Shown piece by piece: positions 7,272 through 49,598 of a stretch of 64,000 nucleotides of DNA (positions are counted from its first letter, which is position 1; each line of letters begins with the position of its first letter). A program made the translations under genes and the position numbers. Where the stretch lies: IMG/VR virus record IMGVR_UViG_3300046519_000214, positions 1-64,000 of that record. One strand, given 5' to 3'. The notes beneath the pieces were generated by a model. It saw nothing but the letters and a program-made list of their open reading frames with translations, made no database searches and was not told where the DNA came from. The stretch comes from a virus.

Positions 7272-7559
7272 TTAAATGTTCGCTCGGTCCATGAGCTCCT
7301 TGAGAGCCTCGGGGTACGAGAGCCGCTGCTCCATCGCCCAGGTCACAAACCGGTTGTAGGTGGAGATCGGCGGACGGATGTTGAGGTTGGCGGAAGGTTC
7401 GGCTTCCTTGCGGCGGACCACCTTCTGAATCGGCTCGCGTGAAACAAAACCGTGCTTCTCAGCCACTTCGTCGATCTTGCGATCGGGAACTTTTGGTTCG
7501 TCGTCGACATCCGGCTTGATTGCGCTGAGGGCACTAAAGCCCAAGTTCTTCCCGGTCAT
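7272..7559 (-). CDS. small partition/stability determinant (probable ribbon-helix-helix centromere-binding protein)
   Basis: 95 aa, coupled to parA by ATGA; AEKHGFVSRE followed by a C-terminal NLNIRPP...YNRF...ALKELM beta-helix-helix pattern. Confidence 0.75.
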   Translation of the reverse strand: MTGKNLGFSALSAIKPDVDDEPKVPDRKIDEVAEKHGFVSREPIQKVVRRKEAEPSANLNIRPPISTYNRFVTWAMEQRLSYPEALKELMDRANI

Positions 7560-8230
7560 GCTGCTTCTTTCTTCTGGACCACGAGGTTGACCAGCTCCTC
7601 AGCGAGGCGCAGGGCGTTCTCGCGGGCCTGGGGCACGCCGTTGACCTCTCCCTCGTCAAGCTCGTTTAGATCGAGCTGGTGGAAGAACATCGACTTGTAG
7701 GCGGCACGCTCGTTCAAGTGATTGTTGAAGGAAGGCACCTCCCCTCCCCTCAGCTGCGCCAGGATCGCTTTCTCAAGCTTGGTGGCAATGACCGGCGAGG
7801 TTCGAGTGAACAGGATCTGGTACGGGATCCGCTTCTCAAATGCCTGCTCCTCTTCCTGGATCAGGCGGATGGCCTTGGCGGCGAGCTCGGCGTCGGTGGG
7901 GCTGGCCTGGATGGGGATAACCACCATCTGGGCTCGTGCGAGTGCTCGGGACATCAGGCGGCTGGCTACACCTTCAAGATCGACGAAGACGAACTGGAAT
8001 TTCTTCCGGTACTCGTCGAGCTTGGAAGTGATGTTGCTTTCGTTCACGTCGCCGTCGACGATCACGGTGTTCTTCGAGGATCCACTACGCCAGCCGGTGA
8101 TTGGTTGGTTCGGATCACAGTCGAGGATGATGGTGGTGGCGCCCTGAGCGGCCAGTGTGGTGGCGAGAACGAGGGTCGTGGTCGACTTCCCTGCCCCACC
8201 CTTGGGGTTCGCTACGGCGATAACAGGCAT
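7556..8230 (-). CDS. parA: ParA-family partition ATPase (short, type Ib-like)
   Basis: Deviant Walker A NPKGGAGKST, LDCDPNQ, FVFVDLEG; no N-terminal HTH. Confidence 0.92.
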   Translation of the reverse strand: MPVIAVANPKGGAGKSTTTLVLATTLAAQGATTIILDCDPNQPITGWRSGSSKNTVIVDGDVNESNITSKLDEYRKKFQFVFVDLEGVASRLMSRALARAQMVVIPIQASPTDAELAAKAIRLIQEEEQAFEKRIPYQILFTRTSPVIATKLEKAILAQLRGGEVPSFNNHLNERAAYKSMFFHQLDLNELDEGEVNGVPQARENALRLAEELVNLVVQKKEAA

Positions 8231-8349
8231 GTGCGTCCTTCCTGATGAACGTTGTAGCGTCATGATGCGGCGGAACGCTTTACGAGACGTTAACGTGCAT
8301 CATAATGGTTCATGAAGCGTCTGCGTCAGAGTACGTTGACGTTGACGCA

Positions 8350-8562
8350 TTATGTAGCGTACCGAACTTCGGCCACGTAGCTGGCGTTCATCTTCGCGAT
8401 CAGCTTGTCGCTAGCGTAGACTTCATACCAAGTGATGCCGTAGGTGCCGAGGTTCTCGGTGACCTCGCGGATTTCGGTGACGCCGTCGTAGTCGATGACC
8501 CACGCGGTAGGATACTCGGGCTTATGAACGGGTTCAGGACCGATGATACTCTTGATTTTCAC
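8350..8562 (-). CDS. hypothetical protein
   Basis: GTG start with AGGAGAG RBS. Confidence 0.6.
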   Translation of the reverse strand: MKIKSIIGPEPVHKPEYPTAWVIDYDGVTEIREVTENLGTYGITWYEVYASDKLIAKMNASYVAEVRYAT

Positions 8563-20613: not shown

Positions 20614-20742
20614 CTACGAGATCGTCATCGAAACGTGGGTCAGAAGCCAATAAATCAGCCAAATTCCACCTCCGAGGCTCAAGATCGCACCAATAGCGGC
20701 CCAGATCAGAAGAAAATACAGAAGGTTTCCAAGTCCAGTCAT
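20614..20742 (-). CDS. small membrane protein (42 aa)
   Basis: MTGLGNLLYFLLIWAAIGAILSLGGGIWLIYWLL; coupled to the primase stop. Confidence 0.5.
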   Translation of the reverse strand: MTGLGNLLYFLLIWAAIGAILSLGGGIWLIYWLLTHVSMTIS

Positions 20743-23150
20743 CAGATTCCAACTCCTATGTAGTAAATTTCGTTCTTGCCGCGGATGTCGATGTCGAACG
20801 GGAACGTGCCCGACAGCTCCTTCATCAGCTTCGTGAATTTCGTGATGTTCACCCGAGTTGAGTTGCCAGTCGCGATGCAGAACTGCCAATACTGGGTGTG
20901 CATCTCGGCCAGCGAGAACTCGTGCTGAGCGCCCCACTTCAGACCCGTGCCCGTCGACGAAAGGAAGTGACGAACCGAGTTGTTGTCCGCCGCCATCTGA
21001 TCAACGAGAGCCAGGTGCGAGGTCGGAAGAGTGAAGTTTCCAGCATCGACCAGGCGCTTGTAGCCCTGGATCGCCCAGGCAACGATCGCTTCGCGCTCGT
21101 GCTCGAGGATCTGAGCATCCAGATCGATGACCCGCTTGTCGGGGCTGATCCGGTTGTTGAACTCGAGGATCAACCAGCGACGATTGAAGCCCTCGGAGCT
21201 GTCCCTCGTCTTCGGCAGGTGGTTCGAGTTGAACCAGTGAGCGCATTCCGGGATGAAAACGAAGGGGTTTTGGTTCTTGAACTGAACCTGCATCTCTTCG
21301 CCCGACACCACCTTCTTGAAGATGTCGCCAGGAATCGGCCGCGTTTCCGACAACTCGCCTGCGAAGTTGACGACCTTGCCGAACATCTCGGCCGGCAGGA
21401 ACCGGTCGGACCAGTCAGACGGCACAATGGCCGACGAGGAACCAAACGGCATCAAACCCCGCATGATGGCCTGGAGCACGGACTTGCCAGCACCCGCCTG
21501 ACCGAACAGGAGGAACGCCATCTGAAAACGTGGCGCCATGCCCATGAGCGAAACACCGAGCATCTCCTGCAGAGCCAGCAGCTTGTCACCGTAATCCGCG
21601 TCCGTCGCCCAGCTATCATTGAGGAACTGGTCGAACATCGGCATGTGACCGGCCTTCTCGGGTGTGTACCGGTAGGGCAGGGTGTAGGTCATGCCGTATT
21701 CCGGAGCGTGCGGAACGAGCTCGAGGTTCTCGGTCAGGTAGCCGTTGGCGAAGTTGACACCCTTGACGTACGAATTGCGAAGCGGCTCCGAAGCGATGGC
21801 CTTCATGACCTTGAGCACACCGTTGTGGTCGCTCTGGCGCTTGCCGGCCGGATATGAACCATAGTTTTCCGCGATGATCTTCAGCAGCTCCTGCTCCTGG
21901 CACTTCACCCAGGCAGCACCGCGCCACTGCCAGAAGTGGCTGGCGTCGTAGCGGACGTCACCGTACTTGCGGAGGAAGCCCAGGCAGGCATCCGCGAGCT
22001 CGGCGTGCGTCTCACCGAGGATTTCACCACGGCGAAGGGTCTGCAGCTGACGCTTCAGGTCTGGTACGGACAGACCGTTGTTCGCATGGTTGACGATGAA
22101 CTTGAGGAGGATTGCCTCGTCGATCGGGCTCAACGGCGGGTTGGTCCGTACAATTCGGTCCAGGGCGACCGAGATCGCATTGCTGCGGCCTTCGGAGCGG
22201 ACGTCCATATGACGCTCGAACTCCAGAGAGACATAATCCATGATCTTCTGCGGCGACCAGCTCTTGTCGTCGTCCGTGAAGGTCAGGCCGAGCTTGACAA
22301 GATCCTCTTCCGTCAGACCCTCATCCCAACCAAGCGGCAGGGCCTTGCGAGCCTCGCCGGTCACATCGCGAACGAGGAACTCGACGACCTTCCCTTGGGC
22401 CTTGTCGATCGTGAGCGGATCCCCGACCACCTTCTCGACATAGTTCTCGACCCACGCAGCCATCTCACCCATCACCTGGAGGAGCGAACGCTCGCCGCGG
22501 AGCACGGCTCGAGCCAGCAGACCGGCATGCCACACCATGGTGGCATCGCGAGCACCGGCCGGTACGAAGTTGACGGTCTTGTTGCCACCACCGGTGGAGA
22601 CCTTGATCCCAGCTTCCTGCAGGGCGCTCTTCAGCACCTTCTCGAAATTGAGGGGCAGGGGAGGAGCGTTCTTCGCGATCTCCCAGAGATTGCCGTCAGC
22701 CGTGTAGGGCTGCTTGGTATCCGGGTGGATCGACGGCGGGAGAACGAACTGCGTGCCCTTGGACAGGATTTCGCAGATCATCGAGCCGTCTTCGGCCTTG
22801 ATACGAGCGGTACGCTCGCCCGACCAGCGATAGATCTGGACCCGACCCTTACGACCAACGCGGTGCCACGGAGACGGCGGCAGGACGCGATCAAGAACCT
22901 GGAGGACTACCGGATCCTCGGAGTCGACGTCGATCGCGACGAGGCCAGCAGCTGGACCCATTGGCAGACCGATGTTGCCAGCTGCGAAGGCATGCAACCA
23001 TGCAGCCTGATCTTCCTTCGTCGGGAAGGCGTCGGAGTACATCTGCCAGCGTGGGATGGCGGGGCGCTTGTTCTCGAAGACGAGGGGAATGGCTGGCAAG
23101 CCAGCGGCCCAGTAGAGTGGGGCGTGGGTTTCGAAAATCTTATCGGCCAT
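20742..23150 (-). CDS. DNA primase-polymerase / SF3 (P4/D5-like) helicase fusion
   Basis: N-terminal NIGL...VAIDVD...FVLPPSIHP Prim-Pol motifs; NFANG; Walker A GQAGAGKS; SNHLP...GFNRR. Confidence 0.92.
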   Translation of the reverse strand: MADKIFETHAPLYWAAGLPAIPLVFENKRPAIPRWQMYSDAFPTKEDQAAWLHAFAAGNIGLPMGPAAGLVAIDVDSEDPVVLQVLDRVLPPSPWHRVGRKGRVQIYRWSGERTARIKAEDGSMICEILSKGTQFVLPPSIHPDTKQPYTADGNLWEIAKNAPPLPLNFEKVLKSALQEAGIKVSTGGGNKTVNFVPAGARDATMVWHAGLLARAVLRGERSLLQVMGEMAAWVENYVEKVVGDPLTIDKAQGKVVEFLVRDVTGEARKALPLGWDEGLTEEDLVKLGLTFTDDDKSWSPQKIMDYVSLEFERHMDVRSEGRSNAISVALDRIVRTNPPLSPIDEAILLKFIVNHANNGLSVPDLKRQLQTLRRGEILGETHAELADACLGFLRKYGDVRYDASHFWQWRGAAWVKCQEQELLKIIAENYGSYPAGKRQSDHNGVLKVMKAIASEPLRNSYVKGVNFANGYLTENLELVPHAPEYGMTYTLPYRYTPEKAGHMPMFDQFLNDSWATDADYGDKLLALQEMLGVSLMGMAPRFQMAFLLFGQAGAGKSVLQAIMRGLMPFGSSSAIVPSDWSDRFLPAEMFGKVVNFAGELSETRPIPGDIFKKVVSGEEMQVQFKNQNPFVFIPECAHWFNSNHLPKTRDSSEGFNRRWLILEFNNRISPDKRVIDLDAQILEHEREAIVAWAIQGYKRLVDAGNFTLPTSHLALVDQMAADNNSVRHFLSSTGTGLKWGAQHEFSLAEMHTQYWQFCIATGNSTRVNITKFTKLMKELSGTFPFDIDIRGKNEIYYIGVGI

Positions 23151-42600: not shown

Positions 42601-45005
42601 CGAAGTACACCTCGAAGGAAGTCAAGAAGGCCGAGCAGAACCAGAACCGCGAGCTGGCCCGCTGGCAGCGGCAGATCTCTGGTGCCAAGAACAACGAAGC
42701 GTTCGAGGCTGCGAAGAAGGGCTACGACGAGCTCCGCAAGACGACGACGGCACAGATCATCAACTTCTATGATGAGCTCATCCGCCTCGCGAACCTGAAC
42801 AAGGATACCGACGCAGTCGAGAAGCTGCAGGAGGAGCGGAAGGAGTTTACGGAACGCGCTGCGGCCGAGTTGGCTGAGCAGAACCGTGCCAACGACGAGA
42901 AGGAACTCGACCTCCAGAAGGAGTCGCTGCAGCGCCAGCGTGAAGCTGTCCAGGACGCAGCGAAGACCCTCCGCACCAAGATCGAGGAAGCAACGGCCGA
43001 GCTGAAGAAGACGCCGCCGAGTGCAGCCATGAACGCGCTCGTCGACAAGATCAAGGAGCTGACCGGCCAGCTCAGCGGCGAGCTCAACAAGATCGGCAAC
43101 ATTGACGTCCAGCTCGAGGGCATCGATCTGAACGAGCCGATCAGCCAAGCAATGGCTGGTAGCGCCCAGTCTGCGATCAAGCACTATATGGACCGCGGTC
43201 TTTCCAAGGCTGGCGCCGCTGCGATCGCGTCGAACCTGTCCGTCGAGTCCGAGTTCAATCCGAATGCTCTAGGCGACCATGGCACCGCCCATGGTGTTGC
43301 CCAGTGGCGAGGCACACGCTGGAACGAGCTCCGGTCCTTTGCAATCCAAAAGGGCACAGCCGCGAACGATGTCAACACTCAGTATGATTTCGTACTGAAG
43401 GAGCTTATGCGTGACTACCCGGATCTCTTCGCACGGCTGAAGGCAGGTACCGAAGATCCGCAGGCTTTGTCGAAGGCGTTCATGAACATCTTCGAACGGC
43501 CAAACAAAGATCCGTCGATCAACCACGTCGGCAAGCGCATGTCTCGCGCCCAGGCGTTTCTTTCTGGCACGGACACCGCCGGTTCGGCTGAAACGTCCAA
43601 GATCCTCGAAGAGACCGAACGTCAGGCCACGGAGAACATCAACAAGGGTATCGAGGCCCAGGCAGAAGCTGCGATCACCAGCCTCAAGTCCCGTATCGGC
43701 AACCTGAAGACCCAGGTCCGCTTCACGGACGACGCAAAGTCGCTCAAGGATCTGCAGTCACAGATCCAGAGCGCCCACGACCAGCTCCTGGATCAGGAGA
43801 TCAAGAAGTTCGATGCTGAGAATGCCGAGCTCAAGAACACCAACCCGACCGACTACACGAACAAGCTCAAGGAGCTGAAGGACGGCCTGCACGAAAACCT
43901 CAACTCCGACCTTCAGAAGGTGATTGAGGAATATTTCAAAGCCGCGGAAGAAGAGCTGCAGCGGCCGGTCGATCGCGCCAAGGCTGCACTGGATGTTGCC
44001 CAGCAGCCCGACATGGCCAGCAAGTACACCACTCTGGACATTCAGAAGCTTCAGCAGAACGTGGTCGATCGCGAGCGTGAGGCAGCTGCCAACCGTGTCC
44101 TGCTCATCGAGCAGCAGATCGCTGAAGTTCGCCGCATGGCGGCTGACGCAGAAGCGAACAACACGGACGGCTCGCGTGACACCGAGGTGCTGCAGTGGCG
44201 CACCCTCGAGAACGACCTCATCGAGAAGAACAACCAGCTGAAGGAGCAGAACAACCTCCTCGACGCTGCCAAGGCGAACCAGGGGCCAACAACGGTCAAT
44301 GCGATCCAGTCCGCAACCGCAGCCTGGGCTCAGCAGAACGGCATCATCGACGCTACCGGTAAGATGATCCCGCTGGCAACCCAGGTGGGCAACGCCTGGG
44401 GTCAGGTGCTTGATGGTTTGTCTTCCGGCTTCTCGCAGTTCTTCATGAACATTTCCTCTGGCACCATGTTGGCCGGCGAGGCGTTCAAGCAGCTCGGCCA
44501 GACCATCCTCCAGATGTTCATGCAGATCATCGCCAAGGCCCTCGCCAACCAGATCATCATGTCGCTGTTCAGCGGTGGATCCGGCGGCTCTAGCATCCTC
44601 TCTCAGCTGGGGGAGGGTCTCTTCGGCATCGTCGGCGGCAAGGCTGTTGGTGGCCTGATCCGAGCCGCCAATGGTGCGGTCGCTCCGTTCCGCGACGGTG
44701 GCGCCTACCAGCTGATGCCTGGTGAGATGGTTCTGCGTCAGTCGGCCGTCCAGGCGATCGGTGAGGATAAGTTGACCCACATCAACAACCTGGGCAACCG
44801 CCAGATCTCGGAAGGCGCTCTCCAGGGTCTCGCTGCGAACAGCAACAAGAAGCAGGATCCTGGCATGGTCAACGTATGGGTTGTCTCGCCGGATCAAGTC
44901 CCACAGTCTGGCCCGAACGACATCATCGCTACCGTCAGCGCCAACATCCAGAACCGCGGCTCGATCAAGCAATTGATCCAGCAGGTAGCGATGGGTCAGA
45001 TCTAG
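39630..45005 (+). CDS. tape measure protein with an embedded phage tail lysozyme domain
   Basis: 1791 aa; TP901-like core (ALAQAG, LNYIGP); GLSKAGAAAIASNLSVESEFNP...GVAQW...FERP at about 43190-43560. Confidence 0.93.
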   Translation: MAENTFEVDYELNAAQARDELEKVRKQLDGVTAKFNSNLGTAKKGILELTKLLSDMVAATEKGTAARARAERSATSILGARYQQLGQGSGVQKSQENQLNRVAAQALVNDIQNTAKAAEARVTEAIVKQTVSLLKTTEAAVAARIKNATFANNQSIANSDDRYLSARNTLANQRRADAIYAAENGRAALSSRNRLEQLNYNGGADLMGIQGRVMLNYAAVGGLFNTIKGAGTGLVELDKELHQYQAISAATNKEMVQFKQNLVQISQSVPYTTLQITQAATALAQAGLSTGQVSESLGSIAQFATATGSSLSQAVDVVTSTLTAFNLETSRTGDVANIFTAALNLSKLSVDKLQTSLNYIGPTAEALGLTLEETTSILGALSQSGVKASTMGTGFRALLTDLQSPSKKLVDVLRAAGLSVDDINVKTKGFLPVIETLKKAGFGAAEAYETLETRSAAAFLALANNTELARDMQRSFTLSAAAVEANAIQMKSLSNTAQVFKNTLGASVFTAFEPIVATLQQIIAGATTVFSWLNKFPGVLQAIGAVAGTFATVLGVSLFGSLIKSLGLMIPLLANFATGFKGVGLAATEGAVAVGFFGRVLAGLSALTLTNWIGLVIAGVALAAGAFFAWKGKTDELTKSIDDLESKVNELKGAADATESKIGSLDTAIQGLIDRRKELDGDRIMRGAKIDELRAQFNELGLSIKDDTMSVTDLIRELNDLRATSSRVRAAELAEAAEARRGEIDKLKEQRGKLTDHNGPQANYIRGLADQAVGGAGGGIETSANNYLIEQISKRFGTNIGEALRISLGDLSQVHDARQALSLGKYVNEQIGVAQRQGDPNGSLGFLTELKATLDPIVANLTKTAAADADLVTILRREADAGIQGSKSFGRLSEKSQFIQKTFDDKMSAISTGNLNDEEKIEAYSAVRRWLETVRDKSIQAFKDDFAKESSTDPNLAGLDDKSVSSQIDQALASLQLKLNEASQKAVTNQTKYTSKEVKKAEQNQNRELARWQRQISGAKNNEAFEAAKKGYDELRKTTTAQIINFYDELIRLANLNKDTDAVEKLQEERKEFTERAAAELAEQNRANDEKELDLQKESLQRQREAVQDAAKTLRTKIEEATAELKKTPPSAAMNALVDKIKELTGQLSGELNKIGNIDVQLEGIDLNEPISQAMAGSAQSAIKHYMDRGLSKAGAAAIASNLSVESEFNPNALGDHGTAHGVAQWRGTRWNELRSFAIQKGTAANDVNTQYDFVLKELMRDYPDLFARLKAGTEDPQALSKAFMNIFERPNKDPSINHVGKRMSRAQAFLSGTDTAGSAETSKILEETERQATENINKGIEAQAEAAITSLKSRIGNLKTQVRFTDDAKSLKDLQSQIQSAHDQLLDQEIKKFDAENAELKNTNPTDYTNKLKELKDGLHENLNSDLQKVIEEYFKAAEEELQRPVDRAKAALDVAQQPDMASKYTTLDIQKLQQNVVDREREAAANRVLLIEQQIAEVRRMAADAEANNTDGSRDTEVLQWRTLENDLIEKNNQLKEQNNLLDAAKANQGPTTVNAIQSATAAWAQQNGIIDATGKMIPLATQVGNAWGQVLDGLSSGFSQFFMNISSGTMLAGEAFKQLGQTILQMFMQIIAKALANQIIMSLFSGGSGGSSILSQLGEGLFGIVGGKAVGGLIRAANGAVAPFRDGGAYQLMPGEMVLRQSAVQAIGEDKLTHINNLGNRQISEGALQGLAANSNKKQDPGMVNVWVVSPDQVPQSGPNDIIATVSANIQNRGSIKQLIQQVAMGQI

Positions 45006-45367
45006 AATTTGACGGAATGAAGGGGACCGCACTCAGGATGAGGTGCGATCCCCGGCCCGCCGAGTGCATCGATCACCTGGTTGTTCTTGAAGAACACCAG
45101 GTAGAACCCTTGGCTGTACGCCCCGAAACTATTCTTCGCATAGAAGGTCGTGCAGACTGCCCATGCTCGAGGATAGCGGAAATTGTCGACCGCCTGGTGG
45201 GGCTTGCCAGCCTTCAGATCCCGAACCGACCATGGATCCTTTGCTGACTTGCGAATGATGTCCGCGACCTTCTTGTCAGTCCCGGTAGGTGCCGGCTCAC
45301 TGGCAGCGTAAGCGGTGGTGGCGATCAACGTGATCGCTGCTGCGGACAAAATTCTGAAAAACTGCAT
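45002..45367 (-). CDS. secreted/periplasmic protein (moron)
   Basis: Signal peptide; KDPWSVR...AVC...AKNSFGAY motif; opposite strand inside the tail operon. Confidence 0.7.
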   Translation of the reverse strand: MQFFRILSAAAITLIATTAYAASEPAPTGTDKKVADIIRKSAKDPWSVRDLKAGKPHQAVDNFRYPRAWAVCTTFYAKNSFGAYSQGFYLVFFKNNQVIDALGGPGIAPHPECGPLHSVKF

Positions 45368-45372
45368 AACCC

Positions 45373-45388
45373 TTAACAGCACCTTAAC
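45373..45388. promoter_or_regulatory. CtrA-type binding site
   Basis: TTAA-CAGCACC-TTAAC, an exact TTAA-N7-TTAAC. Confidence 0.55.
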
Positions 45389-45517
45389 GATCTATCGACA
45401 ATTCTAATCTGTGGACCCCTGCGCGTTTTCTGCTCAGGGGTTGGCACGACTCAACCACTAGGCCACAATATCACTGATTTGCAACGGGGGACGTGAGTCT
45501 TGACGTAATTTACCCAC

Positions 45518-45590
45518 AAACGAAAAAGCACCGGGTTGCCGCCCAGTGCTTGTTCAAACCTTCAGAGAGCTCTTGAAGCCCCTTCACAAG
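45518..45590 (-). ncRNA. candidate counter-transcribed (antisense) RNA in the leader of the rep-like gene
   Basis: Minus-strand TTGACA at 45623-45618 followed by CCTGATTCG; about 70 nt with a small hairpin, then terminator AGCACTGGG-CGGCAA-CCCGGTGCT-TTTT. Confidence 0.55.
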
Positions 45591-45677
45591 GTCAAAGCTC
45601 TCATAAAACGAATCAGGTGTCAACGGGAAATTTGCCGATTTCTCGAACGATATCTTATACCTAAGTGAGGTACAGCT

Positions 45678-46466
45678 TTGACGGGAAACCTATTGGTTGC
45701 TCTGCAACTCAAACGTGCTATTTCCAAAGCCACAAAACTTCAGGTCTGCACCAATCTCTCGAGGATCCTTTGGGATCAGCACCACAAAGGCGAGCTCAGC
45801 GACCGGCGAGCTCACCAGCTCGACGCGGCCCTGAAACTACGCCAGACTCTGATCCACCAACGGATCATCACGGTGTTCACCGAGATCGAGCGGAAGAAGC
45901 CACAGCCCCGGAAGAGGGAGGCGTCGATTGCCCGCCGTCGTGGACTGGTTGCAGCGGGATTTCTTCCTCCGGAGATCGCTACCCAGTTCACCATGTCTGA
46001 GCAGGCGGTCCTCACAACATTGGCGAAGCTGGCTGGTGAGTGCTCTGTCATTCGTTGCGCCGTCGACGCCATCGCTGCCCGTGCGGCTGTCTCGAGATCC
46101 ATGGTTCAGAAGACGATCCGGAAAGCCCACGATATGCGGCTGATCGAGCGAAAGATTCAGAAGCGGAAGGGCGAGAAGAACGACTTCAACCTGATCAGGC
46201 TTCTGTGCCCGAAGTGGCTCGGCTGGTTGTCGCGGAGGATAGGGTGGAAAAAAGAAAGCACCACGAATACTCAAGGTTTATCTACTAAGAGCGCAGCGAC
46301 CGCAAACCCTTGTATTGCAAGGGAATCAAACCCATATCAACCCGCATGGAAACGTATGATTTCCCGTACTTCACCTGGACAACGGAATACCCAGAGTCCT
46401 CTCCAAAGGTGCAGCTCGGGCGAGGCTATGAATTTGCAGCCAGACCTCGCGGACCTGATCAGGTAA
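45678..46466 (+). CDS. HTH-domain protein, candidate plasmid-type replication initiator
   Basis: TTG start with GAGG RBS; AVDAIAARAAVSRSMVQKTIRKAHDMRLI wHTH followed by R...KNDFNLI; own promoter TTGGCA-N17-CACAAT at 45441-45469. Confidence 0.6.
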   Translation: MTGNLLVALQLKRAISKATKLQVCTNLSRILWDQHHKGELSDRRAHQLDAALKLRQTLIHQRIITVFTEIERKKPQPRKREASIARRRGLVAAGFLPPEIATQFTMSEQAVLTTLAKLAGECSVIRCAVDAIAARAAVSRSMVQKTIRKAHDMRLIERKIQKRKGEKNDFNLIRLLCPKWLGWLSRRIGWKKESTTNTQGLSTKSAATANPCIARESNPYQPAWKRMISRTSPGQRNTQSPLQRCSSGEAMNLQPDLADLIR

Positions 46467-46726
46467 AGTACACGCTCCACTACAAGACGATGAAGTTTTA
46501 CACGGACGAGACTGGCCGTGTCCTCACGGGTATCATGCCCAAGATCAACATCGCTCGTCTGGAAGAGTTCTACCTGAAGCACAAGCTGTTCGAGAAGTTC
46601 ATTCTGCCTTTGCCGGGGAAGGGGCTTTTGACCGTTCGCTTCAGCAAGCCGCTGAAATACCGTGTCGCTGAGGACGGTCAAGGTACTGTCGAATCCTTCG
46701 AGATGGAGGTCACGACCCAGCCATGA
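46346..46726 (+). CDS. minor tail protein M-like (distal tail)
   Basis: VQLGRGYEF...LEEFY..H...KF; position. Confidence 0.7.
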   Translation: METYDFPYFTWTTEYPESSPKVQLGRGYEFAARPRGPDQVKYTLHYKTMKFYTDETGRVLTGIMPKINIARLEEFYLKHKLFEKFILPLPGKGLLTVRFSKPLKYRVAEDGQGTVESFEMEVTTQP

Positions 46727-47214
46727 CGTCGACTGCGCCTCTTGAGCACAAACAAGAAGCACAGAAACTCACAGCCGACGCGCTGGTCGATCTCTACACG
46801 ATCATCCTGAAGAACCAACCGGTCATCTTCCGCTTCAAGACCGACAACACCACCACGTGGCAGGGACAGCTTTACGAAGGCATGGCCACACGCATGACCG
46901 GCGACACTCGATCGGCGGACGGCGAGGAAAGCCGGCCAATTCTCCAGGTCATGAACCCGTTCGGGATCTTTAACTCGGCCGCGATCAAGGGCCAGCTCGA
47001 CCAGGCCACCGTGATCCGTCGTCGCGTCCTCCGCGATCATGTCGAGAAGGATGTGAACAAATTCGAGCAACGCATGTGGTACGTCGGCCGCATCCGCGAG
47101 CTCATCTCCGGACAGAGCATCTCGCTCGAGCTCCGCAACATGACCGAAGGCGCGAACTTCCAGATTCCGTGCCGCATGTTCATCCCGCCTGAGTTCCCGA
47201 TGGTGTCGCTCTAA
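46723..47214 (+). CDS. minor tail protein L-like
   Basis: QKLTADALVDLY...TWQGQLY...P.L...N. Confidence 0.75.
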   Translation: MTSTAPLEHKQEAQKLTADALVDLYTIILKNQPVIFRFKTDNTTTWQGQLYEGMATRMTGDTRSADGEESRPILQVMNPFGIFNSAAIKGQLDQATVIRRRVLRDHVEKDVNKFEQRMWYVGRIRELISGQSISLELRNMTEGANFQIPCRMFIPPEFPMVSL

Positions 47215-48549: not shown

Positions 48550-49587
48550 ATGCGTCCATCTGAAGACCTCATCAAGCAGGCAGTTGGCATGACGGGGGGC
48601 TTCAGACCCGCCGCTCGCTATCTGCGGGAGCAGGGCTACGACATCTCCGAGTCTGGCATCCGTGGGATGAAGAAACGCTGGGACGACAGCGACTTCGAGC
48701 TTGTCGACGAGCCAAAACCCTCGATCGACATCGAAGCCCTGGTCGAGCGCCGCATCAACCAGTTCGCTCAGAAGCGGGAGAAATTCGAGCGGGAGAAAAT
48801 CATCCCGGTTCGCGTCAAGCGCGACGGCCCAATCGGCATTGGCTTCTTCGGTGACATGCACCTGGACGACGATGGCACAGACCTGGCCCAGGTGCTCGAG
48901 CACGTCAATCTCTTCGACGGCCGGAATGAAGGTCTATATGCGGCCAACGTCGGTGACGTCTTCAACAACTGGGCTGGCCGTCTGGCTCGTCTCTACTCGG
49001 AACAGAGCACCTCGGCGGACGAAGCCCTGGCACTGGTCGAGTACGTTCTCCAGAAGATCGACTGGCTCTATTACACGGACGGCAACCACGATCTGTGGGG
49101 GCAGGGTGGCGACATCCTGAAGCACATCCTCGCGAACAACGCTCTGGTCCACAAGTCGAACAAGGTTCGTCTGCAGCTGCAGCTGCCCAACGGACGTGAC
49201 GTGAAGATCTATTCGGTCCACGGGTTCCGCGGTAAGTCCATGTGGTCGGAGTCCTATGGTGCTGCGAAGGCAGCTCAGCTCGACGGCGATCACCACGACA
49301 TCTACGTCGCCGGCCACATCCACACCTCGGGTTATGCCCATGGCATGCGTCCATCATCCTCGCAGATCTGGCACGCTCTCCAGGTCGCCTCGTACAAGAA
49401 GATTGACCGCTACGCCGAGGAGCTGAACCTCGACGCCAAGGATCTCTACAATTGCCCTGTGGCACTCATCGATCCCTACGCGACGAGCGAGATGAACTTC
49501 ATCCGTTTCGAGTTTGATCCTGGTGAAGCAGCCGAGCGTCTGAAGTGGATGCAGAACCGCTGGCGCTCTGGAAAAACAGCTCATTAA
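48550..49587 (+). CDS. calcineurin-like metallophosphoesterase with an N-terminal HTH
   Basis: GDMH, VGDVFN, GNHD, VHG, GHIH. Confidence 0.85.
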   Translation: MRPSEDLIKQAVGMTGGFRPAARYLREQGYDISESGIRGMKKRWDDSDFELVDEPKPSIDIEALVERRINQFAQKREKFEREKIIPVRVKRDGPIGIGFFGDMHLDDDGTDLAQVLEHVNLFDGRNEGLYAANVGDVFNNWAGRLARLYSEQSTSADEALALVEYVLQKIDWLYYTDGNHDLWGQGGDILKHILANNALVHKSNKVRLQLQLPNGRDVKIYSVHGFRGKSMWSESYGAAKAAQLDGDHHDIYVAGHIHTSGYAHGMRPSSSQIWHALQVASYKKIDRYAEELNLDAKDLYNCPVALIDPYATSEMNFIRFEFDPGEAAERLKWMQNRWRSGKTAH

Positions 49588-49598
49588 TCCCCACTTAA
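49584..49598. promoter_or_regulatory. second CtrA-type site
   Basis: TTAA-TCCCCAC-TTAA, 30 nt upstream of the tail J gene. Confidence 0.4.

What the first reader, a model, noticed from the sequence alone, without database searches (positions are those of the whole stretch)
45380..46466. Plasmid-type replicon module (HTH initiator candidate plus antisense ctRNA) hidden inside the tail operon
Seen: a self-contained insert lies between the tape measure and tail M genes. It has a plus-strand promoter (TTGGCA-N17-CACAAT), a structured leader of about 200 nt and a winged-HTH ORF. In the leader, a minus-strand TTGACA-CCTGATTCG promoter points into a roughly 70-nt unit that ends in an intrinsic terminator. 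An AT-rich patch lies in the 3' part of the ORF (about 46250-46340). Known: rhizobial repABC/repC replicons control RepC through a short counter-transcribed RNA in the repC leader and carry oriV inside repC. From memory, their ctRNA promoter also has TTGACA followed by a GATTC site. Inference: this ORF does not look like canonical RepC, so it may be a distinct initiator family using the same antisense logic. Together with the distant ParA cassette it would make this genome a phage-plasmid with a split replicon. I recall RHEph10 and pLM21S1 as rhizobial phage-plasmids; relatedness is untested.
Basis: partly seen in the sequence, partly recalled or inferred. Interest (0 to 1): 0.82.

Follow-up and report, generated by a model that had tools for sequence, protein, structure and literature searches.

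The report
Antisense-controlled plasmid replicon inside phage tail operon
A 1.3-kb cassette wedged between the tape-measure and tail genes of an 80-kb rhizosphere phage encodes a DNA-binding protein from a large unnamed family that takes the place of the replication initiator in plasmids and plasmid-prophages of Alphaproteobacteria, so it probably lets this phage persist as a plasmid.

Summary

- **Family.** The ORF (45678-46466; conserved part about residues 1-200) belongs to a family of at least 1,137 clusters with no Pfam or NCBIfam name.
- **Position.** Members occupy the RepC position after repA-repB in Ochrobactrum phage POI1126, a proven plasmid prophage whose initiator was never identified. 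They follow parA-parB in Aurantimonas phage AmM-1.
- **Plasmids.** Thirteen of 14 inspected alphaproteobacterial plasmids carrying a member have no recognised Rep.
- **Split cassette.** The window's ParA and its partner, 38 kb away, are 62% and 49% identical to the AmM-1 pair.
- **Antisense unit.** A -35 TTGAC, a 17-nt spacer, a -10 like GAGNNT, a hairpin and a terminator recur in the leaders. An automatic scan found antisense terminators in 14 of 18 leaders, against a background of 0.19. The unit matches no Rfam family.
- **Candidate origin.** A low-GC patch with depressed third-codon-position GC (GC3) follows the wHTH in most loci.
- **Rest of the genome.** No integrase, RepC or Rep_3 was found.

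Caveats: no RNA or replication data exist, the fold is a generic wHTH, no iterons were found, and one plasmid also carries a Rep_3. Confidence: initiator about 0.65, ctRNA about 0.75. Another first-stage window of this scan also noted this stretch.

The parts
45002..45382 (-). P0002: small protein with a signal-peptide-like N-terminus (likely start ATG 45367). It is the leftward gene of the same insert.
   Evidence: ORF and translation. phrog_2320, function unknown, E 1.5e-8. A minus-strand ORF of similar length occupies the same position in L009.
45373..45387 (.). Perfect CtrA box TTAA-N7-TTAA, between the P0002 start and the rep promoter.
   Evidence: One of only two in the 80.5-kb genome. 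Invariant in three relatives.
45415..45441 (.). HP1: hairpin abutting the -35 of the rep promoter, with a different stem sequence in each of three relatives.
   Evidence: Inverted repeat I4. Stems read by eye from alignment A2.
45441..45469 (+). Candidate rep promoter TTGGCA-N17-CACAAT, with a GANTC site at 45448 in the spacer.
   Evidence: Promoter scan, 9 of 12 matches. Invariant in L008 and L009. GANTC positions.
45515..45551 (-). Intrinsic terminator of the antisense RNA: 10-bp stem at 45551-45526, loop CGGCAA, then a T-run.
   Evidence: Terminator scan. L008 and L009 carry a matching 1-nt insertion in both arms that adds a base pair. No T-run follows on the plus strand.
45517..45588 (-). 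Predicted counter-transcribed RNA of about 65-70 nt: a 5' single-stranded tail plus the terminator hairpin. The 5' end is inferred from the promoter, not measured.
   Evidence: Promoter and terminator geometry. The same geometry occurs in 14 loci read by eye. No Rfam match at E up to 10.
45565..45602 (.). HP2: hairpin with three entirely different stem sequences in three relatives. Its upstream arm on the minus strand contains the antisense -10.
   Evidence: Alignment A2. Folds of both strands. Equivalent hairpins in AmM-1, pAU40rrn, pMaq22A_3p and other plasmids.
45595..45623 (-). Antisense promoter: -35 TTGACA (45623-45618), 17-nt spacer ending in TGA, -10 GAGCTT (45600-45595). A GANTC site lies at 45610.
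   Evidence: Sequence. The same TTGAC(N)-17-(TGn)-GAGNNT layout appears in most family leaders, and CCCGTTGAC is shared with AmM-1 and pAU40rrn.
45624..45645 (+). HP3: conserved hairpin in the sense leader (9 bp with two G-U pairs, loop UGCC).
   Evidence: Folds. Invariant in three relatives. A hairpin at the same place in AmM-1, read by eye, differs at some stem positions.
45678..46466 (+). wHTH protein P0001, the candidate replication initiator. The conserved part is residues ~1-200 (to about 46280). The last ~40 codons are unconstrained read-through into the tail gene.
   Evidence: phrog_15967, E 4e-37. 1,137 related clusters. Structure model. Synteny. Frame test.
46245..46300 (.). AT-rich patch just after the wHTH; candidate origin or DNA-unwinding region (inferred).
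   Evidence: Low-GC window at +550 to +700 in 12 of 13 loci. GC3 falls from 0.70 to 0.39 here, and by 0.07-0.41 in all 12 loci measured.
46310..46337 (+). Late-promoter-like motif TTGTAT-N15-CCCATAT that would restart the tail genes. It belongs to the phage backbone, not the replicon.
   Evidence: The same motif lies before the terminase gene (23753) and two other virion modules. More than 90% identical in L009.
7272..8263 (-). Partition pair: ParA (7556-8263) and a small partner (7272-7559), the separated half of the cassette.
   Evidence: Pfam VirC1, AAA_31 and CbiA matches. 62% and 49% identity to AmM-1 gp35 and gp34, which directly precede the AmM-1 family member.

Best explanation
The insert is the replication half of a plasmid-maintenance cassette carried by a phage-plasmid.

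P0001 is a DNA-binding protein with a three-helix N-terminal domain and a winged HTH. It most likely acts as the initiator for replication in the plasmid (prophage) state, filling the role RepC fills in repABC replicons without being related to RepC. It is transcribed from the promoter at 45441-45469 through a ~200-nt structured leader.

A strong promoter on the opposite strand (TTGACA, 17-nt spacer, TGA, GAGCTT) makes a ~65-70-nt counter-transcribed RNA ending at the terminator at 45551-45515. This RNA should pair with the leader and hold down initiator synthesis, which would set copy number and incompatibility.

How repression works is an inferred step. One reading is that pairing with the upstream arm of hairpin HP2 frees the CUC-containing downstream arm, which then covers the GAGG/TTG translation start. 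Cleavage of the RNA duplex or transcription attenuation are equally open.

The AT-rich stretch just after the wHTH coding part is the candidate origin. Partition is supplied by the ParA pair 38 kb away.

Shown here: the sequence features, their conservation and covariation, the family's synteny, and the absence of an integrase or a known Rep. Inferred: the initiator function, the existence and 5' end of the RNA, the origin, and the plasmid lifestyle.
For: Family and position
- Large family with no name: phrog_15967 at E 4e-37; 1,137 clusters at E up to 1e-3; only generic HTH matches in Pfam.
- RepC slot: POI1126 has repA(gp39)-repB(gp38)-gp37-gp36, and gp36 is a family member. That phage replicates as a plasmid, and its authors could identify no plasmid gene beyond the partition pair (PMC5492332).
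- AmM-1 has parA-parB-member.
- Thirteen of 14 inspected plasmids with a member have no replicon type and no annotated Rep, and most have parA beside the member.
- pMaq22A_3p is an 85.7-kb circular plasmid with this phage's architecture and carries a member.

Split cassette
- The window's ParA and partner are 62% and 49% identical to AmM-1 gp35 and gp34.

Antisense unit
- The terminator is on the minus strand only. The stems covary and both arms carry a compensating insertion in relatives.
- The same promoter-hairpin-terminator layout appears in 14 loci read by eye.
- Automatic scan: antisense terminators in 14 of 18 leaders against 3 of 18 on the sense strand, with a background of 0.19 per 400-nt window.

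Candidate origin
- The low-GC patch recurs in 12 of 13 loci and GC3 drops in all 12 measured.

Other
- Weak similarity of the wHTH to lambda O-type initiators: phrog_391 at E 4e-4 and BFVD matches at E about 4e-4.
- No integrase, resolvase, RepC or Rep_3 in the 98%-complete genome.
- The ORF is the most diverged stretch between related phages (45-60% nt identity against a ~82% backbone), while its leader stays at 92-93% and only the hairpin stems change. This is the pattern expected of an incompatibility determinant.
Against: - No experimental data exist for any family member as an initiator, and no RNA data were available.
- Structure searches return only generic winged-helix regulators such as CodY, MarR, CRP and ORC/Cdc6 WH domains.
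- No iterons were found near the gene, and a scan downstream of it (+500 to +1000) found a DnaA-box-like site with at most 1 mismatch only in AmM-1.
- The 9.4-kb plasmid pAU40rrn carries a Rep_3 initiator as well as a member, so the member is not the sole Rep there (PMC10645730).
- The phage has its own primase-helicase (20742-23150) and family-A polymerase. By analogy with N15, these could replicate an episome without P0001.
- The predicted -10 lies inside HP2, so the RNA cannot contain the full hairpin whose stems covary.
- A thermodynamic test of the translation-start occlusion model showed almost no change in accessibility in any of the three relatives; the predicted pairing with the start region appeared as the minimum-energy fold only in the window.
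- The low GC3 could reflect relaxed selection on a disordered tail rather than an origin.
Confidence: 0.6

Rival explanations
1. P0001 is a transcription regulator rather than an initiator. It could be a repressor of lytic or partition genes in the plasmid state, itself tuned by an antisense RNA, while episomal replication relies on the phage's own primase-helicase and polymerase.
For: The fold is a generic wHTH, closest to CodY, MarR and CRP-type regulators. Depositors annotate members as GntR-family or transcriptional regulators. The phage encodes a PrimPol-D5-type helicase and PolA. pAU40rrn already has a Rep_3. No iterons were found.
Against: Thirteen of 14 plasmids with a member lack any other candidate Rep, and most lack a primase-helicase. 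The member sits in the RepC slot of repA-repB in POI1126. Antisense RNA control combined with an AT-rich patch is typical of replicons. Regulators of partition operons are normally the Par proteins themselves (established knowledge).
Confidence: 0.22
2. The minus-strand promoter and terminator serve the leftward gene P0002. They would act as a leader or attenuator for that moron, not as a regulator of P0001.
For: P0002 lies downstream on the same strand, about 150 nt beyond the terminator. Read-through from a strong TTGACA promoter could express it.
Against: The same antisense unit precedes family members whose upstream neighbour is unrelated or co-oriented, for example parB in AmM-1 and POI1126 and various genes on plasmids. 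The unit therefore travels with the wHTH gene, not with P0002.
Confidence: 0.08
3. The motifs are chance matches, and the ORF is a decaying passenger gene with no current function.
For: Single consensus matches are common. The promoter scan found 2 sites where 0.9 were expected, and the terminator scan found 2 where 2.3 were expected.
Against: The leader is invariant or covaries across relatives whose ORF is only 50% identical. The antisense terminator is enriched across 18 loci. The family has more than 1,000 clusters with conserved residues.
Confidence: 0.03

Closest known systems
repABC and repC-family replicons of Alphaproteobacteria (e.g. p42d, pRmeGR4a)
   Same: Partition genes are followed by the initiator gene. 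A short counter-transcribed RNA with a sigma-70-type promoter and an intrinsic terminator is encoded opposite the initiator leader, and it represses the initiator and determines incompatibility. The origin is an AT-rich stretch inside the initiator gene (PMC10194956, PMC3155836). In POI1126 the family member stands exactly where repC would, downstream of a p42d-type ctRNA.
   Different: P0001 is ~200 functional residues with a single wHTH and gives no RP-C match. Its antisense RNA matches no Rfam ctRNA family. In the window the partition pair is a small type-Ib-like ParA plus a 95-aa partner, located 38 kb away.
Ochrobactrum phage POI1126 (Namazuvirus), a proven plasmid prophage
   Same: It carries a family member (gp36) with an antisense promoter 59 nt upstream of the start and a clean terminator about 150 nt upstream. 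It also has partition genes and phage structural genes.
   Different: It is a podovirus of 60 kb, unrelated in its virion genes. Its cassette is contiguous (repA-repB-gp37-gp36) and lies among non-structural genes. It also has an integrase-like gene (PMC5492332).
Lambda O-type phage replication initiators
   Same: Weak sequence and structure similarity of the wHTH: phrog_391 at E 4e-4, phrog_1032 at E 1.3e-3, and BFVD O-like entries at E about 4e-4. In lambda the origin lies inside the initiator gene (established knowledge).
   Different: No iterons were found. No P-like or DnaB-loader gene was seen next to the ORF. The wHTH is C-terminal to a helical domain rather than N-terminal.
Antisense-RNA-controlled plasmids (R1 CopA, pMV158 RNAII, ColE2 RNAI, IncB RNAI)
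   Same: A constitutive short antisense RNA covers the rep leader. The stem-loop that determines specificity varies between otherwise conserved relatives.
   Different: The hosts, initiators and RNAs are unrelated. The mechanism here has not been determined.
Phage-plasmids P1 and N15
   Same: The phage genome carries partition genes and no working integration system.
   Different: P1 uses an iteron-type RepA and N15 uses a primase-helicase RepA with linear ends. Here the candidate initiator is a small wHTH protein placed inside the tail operon, apart from its partition genes.

Membership tests
RepC (repABC / repC family) | Initiator protein with RP-C (PF03428) and RP-C_C domains | tested here: not met
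   Pfam scan of P0001 gives only weak generic HTH matches. PF03428 has no match in the whole genome. None of 88 family members matches RP-C.
RepC (repABC / repC family) | ctRNA of the p42d type (Rfam RF00489) opposite the initiator leader | tested here: not met
   No ctRNA family matches at E up to 10 in 44500-47000. RF00489 does match next to repB in POI1126 at 36 bits, E 1.7e-4, below the gathering score.
RepC (repABC / repC family) | Contiguous repA-repB-repC operon | tested here: not met
   The ParA pair is at 7272-8263 and the candidate initiator is at 45678. The arrangement is contiguous in AmM-1 and POI1126.
RepC (repABC / repC family) | Origin inside the initiator gene (AT-rich) | tested here: inconclusive
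   An AT-rich, low-GC3 patch recurs after the wHTH, but origin function cannot be tested with these tools.
Rep_3 iteron initiators (RepE, pi, RepA) | Two winged-helix domains (Rep3_N and Rep3_C) | tested here: not met
   No Pfam match. The model shows one wHTH after a three-helix domain.
Rep_3 iteron initiators (RepE, pi, RepA) | Array of iterons next to the gene | tested here: not met
   Only two-copy short repeats in 45300-46600. No arrays around five plasmid members.
Lambda O-like initiators | O-type DNA-binding wHTH | tested here: inconclusive
   phrog_391 at E 4e-4 and phrog_1032 at E 1.3e-3. BFVD O-like matches at E about 4e-4 with TM 0.25.
phrog_15967 / unnamed wHTH family | Full-length profile match | tested here: met
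   E 4.4e-37 over residues 8-212. 424 clusters at E up to 1e-10.
Phage-plasmid | Complete virion and lysis genes plus a partition system | tested here: met
   Terminase and tape-measure genes and a gene order shared with the annotated phage-plasmid pMaq22A_3p, which has head, tail and lysis genes. ParA plus partner.
Phage-plasmid | No integration module | tested here: met
   PF00589 and PF00239 are absent from the 98%-complete record.
Phage-plasmid | Demonstrated extrachromosomal maintenance | not testable with these tools
   Indirect only. The relative pMaq22A_3p is a circular plasmid. A 68%-identical member lies on an 83-kb contig of a Rhizobium ruizarguesonis isolate.

The most novel reading that the evidence does not exclude
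P0001 represents an unrecognised, widespread family of plasmid replication initiators (more than 1,000 clusters, mostly Alphaproteobacteria). Each member would be paired with a new class of counter-transcribed RNA, and the family would functionally replace RepC. This would account for replication of many currently untypeable plasmids and plasmid prophages, including POI1126, AmM-1 and pMaq22A_3p. In this phage it travels as a ~1.3-kb portable cassette that landed in the tail operon, apart from its partition genes.
Probability: 0.55. Interest if true: 0.78.

Novelty: new variant of a known kind. Interest (0 to 1): 0.68.

Why it matters
Many small and mid-sized alphaproteobacterial plasmids cannot be replicon-typed, and several plasmid prophages have no known initiator. 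The authors of the POI1126 study said so explicitly for that phage. A validated new initiator family with its own antisense RNA would do three things:
- fill a gap in plasmid typing schemes;
- improve detection of phage-plasmids in rhizosphere and phyllosphere bacteria;
- provide a compact (~1 kb) replicon for vectors in Rhizobium, Agrobacterium and Methylobacterium.

The finding also shows that a replicon can be split, with its replication half lodged inside a late structural operon. This bears on how lytic-type phages acquire a plasmid lifestyle.

Tried and rejected
- **Rfam:** a search of 44500-47000 at E up to 10 gave only a chance L19-leader match.
- **The look-up of encoding contigs:** The 83-kb Rhizobium ruizarguesonis contig and the contexts of P0005-P0007 could not be fetched that way.
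- **Collection scans:** a protein-pattern scan of genome contigs found nothing. The 21-mer leader motif found nothing in metagenome contigs. In genome contigs it gave one unexamined Pyrinomonadaceae hit.
- **Expression:** no RNA holder is listed among the sequencing runs; all 22 are rhizosphere metagenome DNA.
- **Structure searches:** Foldseek against PDB and VIA-align wide returned only generic winged-helix folds. RepE, pi and RepC-type folds were not among the listed rows, which excludes nothing.
- **PDB profile search:** only chance-level HTH matches.
- **Occlusion model:** the thermodynamic test gave unpaired probabilities of 0.36 to 0.30, 0.56 to 0.56 and 0.28 to 0.29. This gives no clear support, and the script stopped before the more distant loci.
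- **Iterons:** the k-mer script timed out. The repeat finder then showed no arrays.
- **DnaA boxes:** in the 500 nt downstream scanned (+500 to +1000), only AmM-1 has a site with 1 mismatch.
- **MAFFT/RNAalifold:** on four antisense sequences it did not capture the HP2 covariation, because the stems are unalignable by sequence. The covariation was therefore read from individual folds.
- **RHEph10 / pLM21S1:** no similarity found.
- **B1VFA / V1VFA-S phages** (PMC12509600): these are 120-kb RepC-type elements and are unrelated.
Full report
**Setting.** The window is bases 1-64000 of an 80,553-bp IMG/VR virus record, estimated 98% complete, with no end repeats. The genome is a siphovirus-type phage. 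Its large terminase is 40-46% identical to those of Caulobacter phage Seuss, Achromobacter phage JWF, Acinetobacter phage EAb13 and the 85.7-kb circular plasmid pMaq22A_3p of Methylobacterium aquaticum. That plasmid is a whole phage genome with the same architecture. The window phage carries its own DNA-synthesis genes: a PrimPol/D5-type helicase, a family-A polymerase, a ligase, ribonucleotide reductase and ThyX. It also carries a ParA ATPase at 7556-8263 on the minus strand. Whole-genome profile searches found no tyrosine or serine recombinase, no RepC and no Rep_3.

**The observation.** The tape-measure ORF ends at 45005 and the next tail gene starts at ATG 46346. Between them lie two genes:
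- a minus-strand gene for a small signal-peptide protein (P0002, 45382/45367 to 45002; phrog_2320);
- a plus-strand ORF at 45678-46466 (P0001, 262 aa, TTG start, GAGG 6 nt upstream).

In pMaq22A_3p the tape-measure gene is directly followed by tail genes, so this is an insert relative to that backbone. The consensus scan finds TTGGCA-N17-CACAAT at 45441-45469. It also finds a minus-strand terminator (stem 45551-45526, then TTTCGTTTGT). TTGACA on the minus strand is at 45623-45618. The 225-nt leader folds better than shuffles, z = -2.9.

**Relatives of the insert.** Two viral contigs carry the same insert: L008 (protein 85% identical) and L009 (50% identical). Against L009 the phage backbone is about 80-85% identical in DNA. 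The ORF body (45650-46250) is only 45-60% identical and is the most diverged stretch. The leader at 45386-45535 is 92-93% identical, and identity rises above 90% again from about 46286.

Within the conserved leader, three hairpins change in a compensating way:
- HP1 (45415-45441) has three different stems in the three sequences.
- HP2 (45565-45602) also has three different stems.
- The terminator stem has gained one base in each arm in L008 and L009, forming an extra pair.

The minus strand folds 6-10 kcal/mol better than the plus strand in all three sequences, because several pairs are G-U on that strand.

The C-terminal 65 residues of P0001 look conserved only because they are read from backbone DNA. 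In the 120-nt overlap with the tail gene, the tail frame shows 4-5 amino-acid changes and the P0001 frame 6-12. The structure model is also low-confidence beyond residue ~190. A motif at 46310-46337 (TTGTAT-N15-CCCATAT) recurs before the terminase gene and two other virion modules.

**What the protein is.**
- Pfam and NCBIfam give only weak generic HTH matches.
- PHROGs gives phrog_15967 (function unknown) at E 4e-37, and weak matches to O-like replication initiators (E 4e-4 and 1e-3).
- An exhaustive search finds 1,137 clusters at E up to 1e-3, typically 230-250 aa, matching residues ~8-205. Every member that carries a name is called hypothetical. The protein atlas likewise returns unnamed or HTH_36-tagged clusters.
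- With an 88-sequence alignment, AlphaFold gives mean pLDDT 82.5. The model has a three-helix N-terminal domain, a linker helix, a winged HTH at residues 106-175 and one further helix.
- Searches of solved structures return only generic winged-helix proteins.
- Among predicted viral structures the best matches are the AmM-1 and POI1126 members, followed by many HTH proteins that include O-like initiators at E about 4e-4.

The fold therefore says 'DNA-binding' and nothing more specific.

**Where the family sits.** This is the strongest evidence.

Phages:
- A tblastn search of the plasmid collection finds members on 58 plasmids, mostly Methylobacterium and Methylorubrum, with Shinella, Agrobacterium, Rhizobium, Methylocystis, Aureimonas and others.
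- In Aurantimonas phage AmM-1 the order is parA (gp35), a small partner (gp34), then the member (gp33).
- In Ochrobactrum phage POI1126 the order is repA-type ParA (gp39), repB-type ParB (gp38), a tiny ORF, then the member (gp36, annotated 'transcriptional regulator'). This is the position of repC in a repABC operon.
- POI1126 was shown experimentally to replicate as a plasmid prophage. Its authors wrote that, apart from the partition pair, no plasmid gene could be identified (PMC5492332).
- A below-threshold match to the p42d-type ctRNA lies just after repB in POI1126 (36 bits, E 1.7e-4).

Plasmids:
- Eight small plasmids were read in full: pSS37A-Re-6, pAt6, pMNOD05, pB146-3, pE, pNYY1_7, pSM30-2 and pMPOP02. 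In each, the member lies next to or near a parA-type gene, usually with a small partner gene. None has an annotated replication protein or a MOB-suite replicon type.
- Five larger plasmids sampled afterwards also have no replicon type.
- The exception is the 9.4-kb rrn plasmid pAU40rrn, which also has a Rep_3 initiator (PMC10645730).

The window phage's ParA and its 95-aa partner are 62% and 49% identical to AmM-1 gp35 and gp34. The three genes that are contiguous in AmM-1 are therefore all present here, but split by 38 kb.

**The antisense unit is a family trait.** In the leaders of the window group, AmM-1, pAU40rrn, pMaq22A_3p, POI1126 and nine plasmids, the strand opposite the gene shows the same layout:
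- a -35 TTGAC(N), or TTGCA/TTGCG in a few;
- a 17-nt spacer that often ends in TGn;
- a hexamer with A at position 2 and T at position 6, most often GAGNNT;
- a hairpin;
- an intrinsic terminator about 65-85 nt from the -35.

The -35 lies 55-100 nt upstream of the start codon in most loci. The motif CCCGTTGAC is shared by the window, AmM-1 and pAU40rrn, even though their proteins are only about 30% identical.

Two scans quantify this:
- A strict scan gave background rates of 0.19 sites per kb per strand, and 0.07 for stems of at least 8 bp. About 0.3-0.9 sites were therefore expected in 12 leaders, but 6-7 independent leaders were positive.
- A more tolerant scan found an antisense terminator in 14 of 18 leaders and a sense terminator in 3 of 18. 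The rate in random 400-nt windows of the same loci was 0.19. Four of the six loci that had not been inspected beforehand were positive.

Not all 18 loci are independent; there are about 12 lineages. None of these units matches an Rfam family.

**Mechanism.** The promoter geometry places the 5' end of the RNA near 45588, inside HP2. The RNA would then be a ~25-nt single-stranded tail plus the terminator hairpin, about 65-70 nt in all. This shape resembles the 55-59-nt repABC ctRNA (PMC10194956).

HP2 would form in the sense leader. Its downstream arm carries CUC(U/C)CA, the complement of the conserved GAG of the antisense -10, and could pair with the GAGG/TTG start region (inverted repeat I6). 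Pairing of the RNA with the upstream arm could therefore release an anti-Shine-Dalgarno segment.

A partition-function test did not clearly support this model. Blocking the target region changed start-site accessibility from 0.36 to 0.30 in the window, and not at all in L008 and L009. I treat this step as an open inference. Duplex cleavage or attenuation are equally possible.

Between related phages, the variable part of the leader is exactly the hairpin that would set RNA-target specificity, and the initiator gene diverges with it. This is what selection for compatibility between co-resident replicons would produce.

**Candidate origin.** In 12 of 13 loci a low-GC 80-nt window lies 550-700 nt after the start, immediately after the wHTH; in the remaining locus it lies just downstream of the gene. 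In the 36 codons after the conserved W..W motif, third-position GC falls by 0.07-0.41 in all 12 loci measured (window 0.70 to 0.39). This points to a constraint on the DNA rather than on the protein. No iteron array was found, and a scan of the downstream 500 nt found a DnaA-box-like site with at most 1 mismatch only in AmM-1. The origin assignment stays tentative.

**Cell-cycle signals.** The leader has three GANTC sites where 0.5 are expected. A perfect CtrA box sits at 45373-45387, one of only two in the genome.

**Verdict.**
My confidence is about 0.65 for the initiator, 0.75 for the RNA, 0.4 for the origin location and 0.65 for the plasmid lifestyle.
- The main rival is a regulator role, with replication left to the phage's primase-helicase.
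- The claimed link to RHEph10 and pLM21S1 is not supported (PMC4447125).

This is a new variant of a known kind. The logic is that of repABC/repC replicons, but the initiator family and the RNA are both uncatalogued, and the placement inside a tail operon is unusual.

Noticed in passing
window 45373-45387 and 49584-49598: These are the only two perfect CtrA boxes (TTAA-N7-TTAA) in the 80.5-kb genome. Both lie at the edges of non-structural inserts in the tail operon. A Methylobacterium bullatum plasmid carries a ctrA gene 2 kb from its family member.
   Followed up: partly
window 45002-45382 (-): P0002 is a 121-126-aa protein with a signal-peptide-like N-terminus (phrog_2320, function unknown). 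It is transcribed leftward from the same insert, and L009 has a minus-strand ORF of similar length at the same position. It may be a moron, for example a superinfection-exclusion or envelope protein.
   Followed up: partly
window 45415-45441: Hairpin HP1 directly abuts the -35 of the rep promoter. Its stem sequence differs in each of three relatives while pairing is kept. No T-run follows on either strand, and its role is unknown.
   Followed up: partly
window 23753, 32038, 38022, 46310 (+): A recurrent motif, TTG...-N15-(C/T)(C/T)CAT(A/C/T)T, lies before the terminase, protease, tail-tube and post-insert tail genes. It is probably a late promoter class. The terminase and tail genes start 8-10 nt after it with no Shine-Dalgarno sequence.
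   Followed up: partly
L007 (pB146-3), L017 (pMPOP02), L015 (pNYY1_7): These 16-23-kb Methylobacterium and Methylorubrum plasmids combine HK97-type head, portal, terminase and tail genes with parA and a family member. They look like miniature phage-plasmids or plasmid-borne gene-transfer-agent-like elements.
   Followed up: no
L019 4186-4700 (POI1126): Two antisense units lie in series between repB and gp36. The first is a p42d-type ctRNA right after repB (RF00489, 36 bits). The second has TTGCAA-N17-TAGTGT plus a clean terminator ahead of gp36.
   Followed up: partly
window 45533-45544 and 45631-45643; L018; L013: The loop of the antisense terminator hairpin (CGGCAA) is complementary to the loop of the downstream sense hairpin HP3 (UUGCCG) as well as to its own template. 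The same holds in AmM-1, and pMaq22A_3p has a parallel variant (CGCCAA / UUGGC). This may be a second kissing site.
   Followed up: no
L003 (pAU40rrn) 7620-8414: The Aureimonas rRNA-operon plasmid, regarded as a Rep_3 plasmid, also carries a family member with the complete antisense promoter-hairpin-terminator unit.
   Followed up: partly
L011 (Pyrinomonadaceae MAG chromosome): The invariant 21-mer of the leader (GAAATTTGCCGATTTCTCGAA) has one exact match in an acidobacterial MAG. It was not examined and may be chance or contamination.
   Followed up: no
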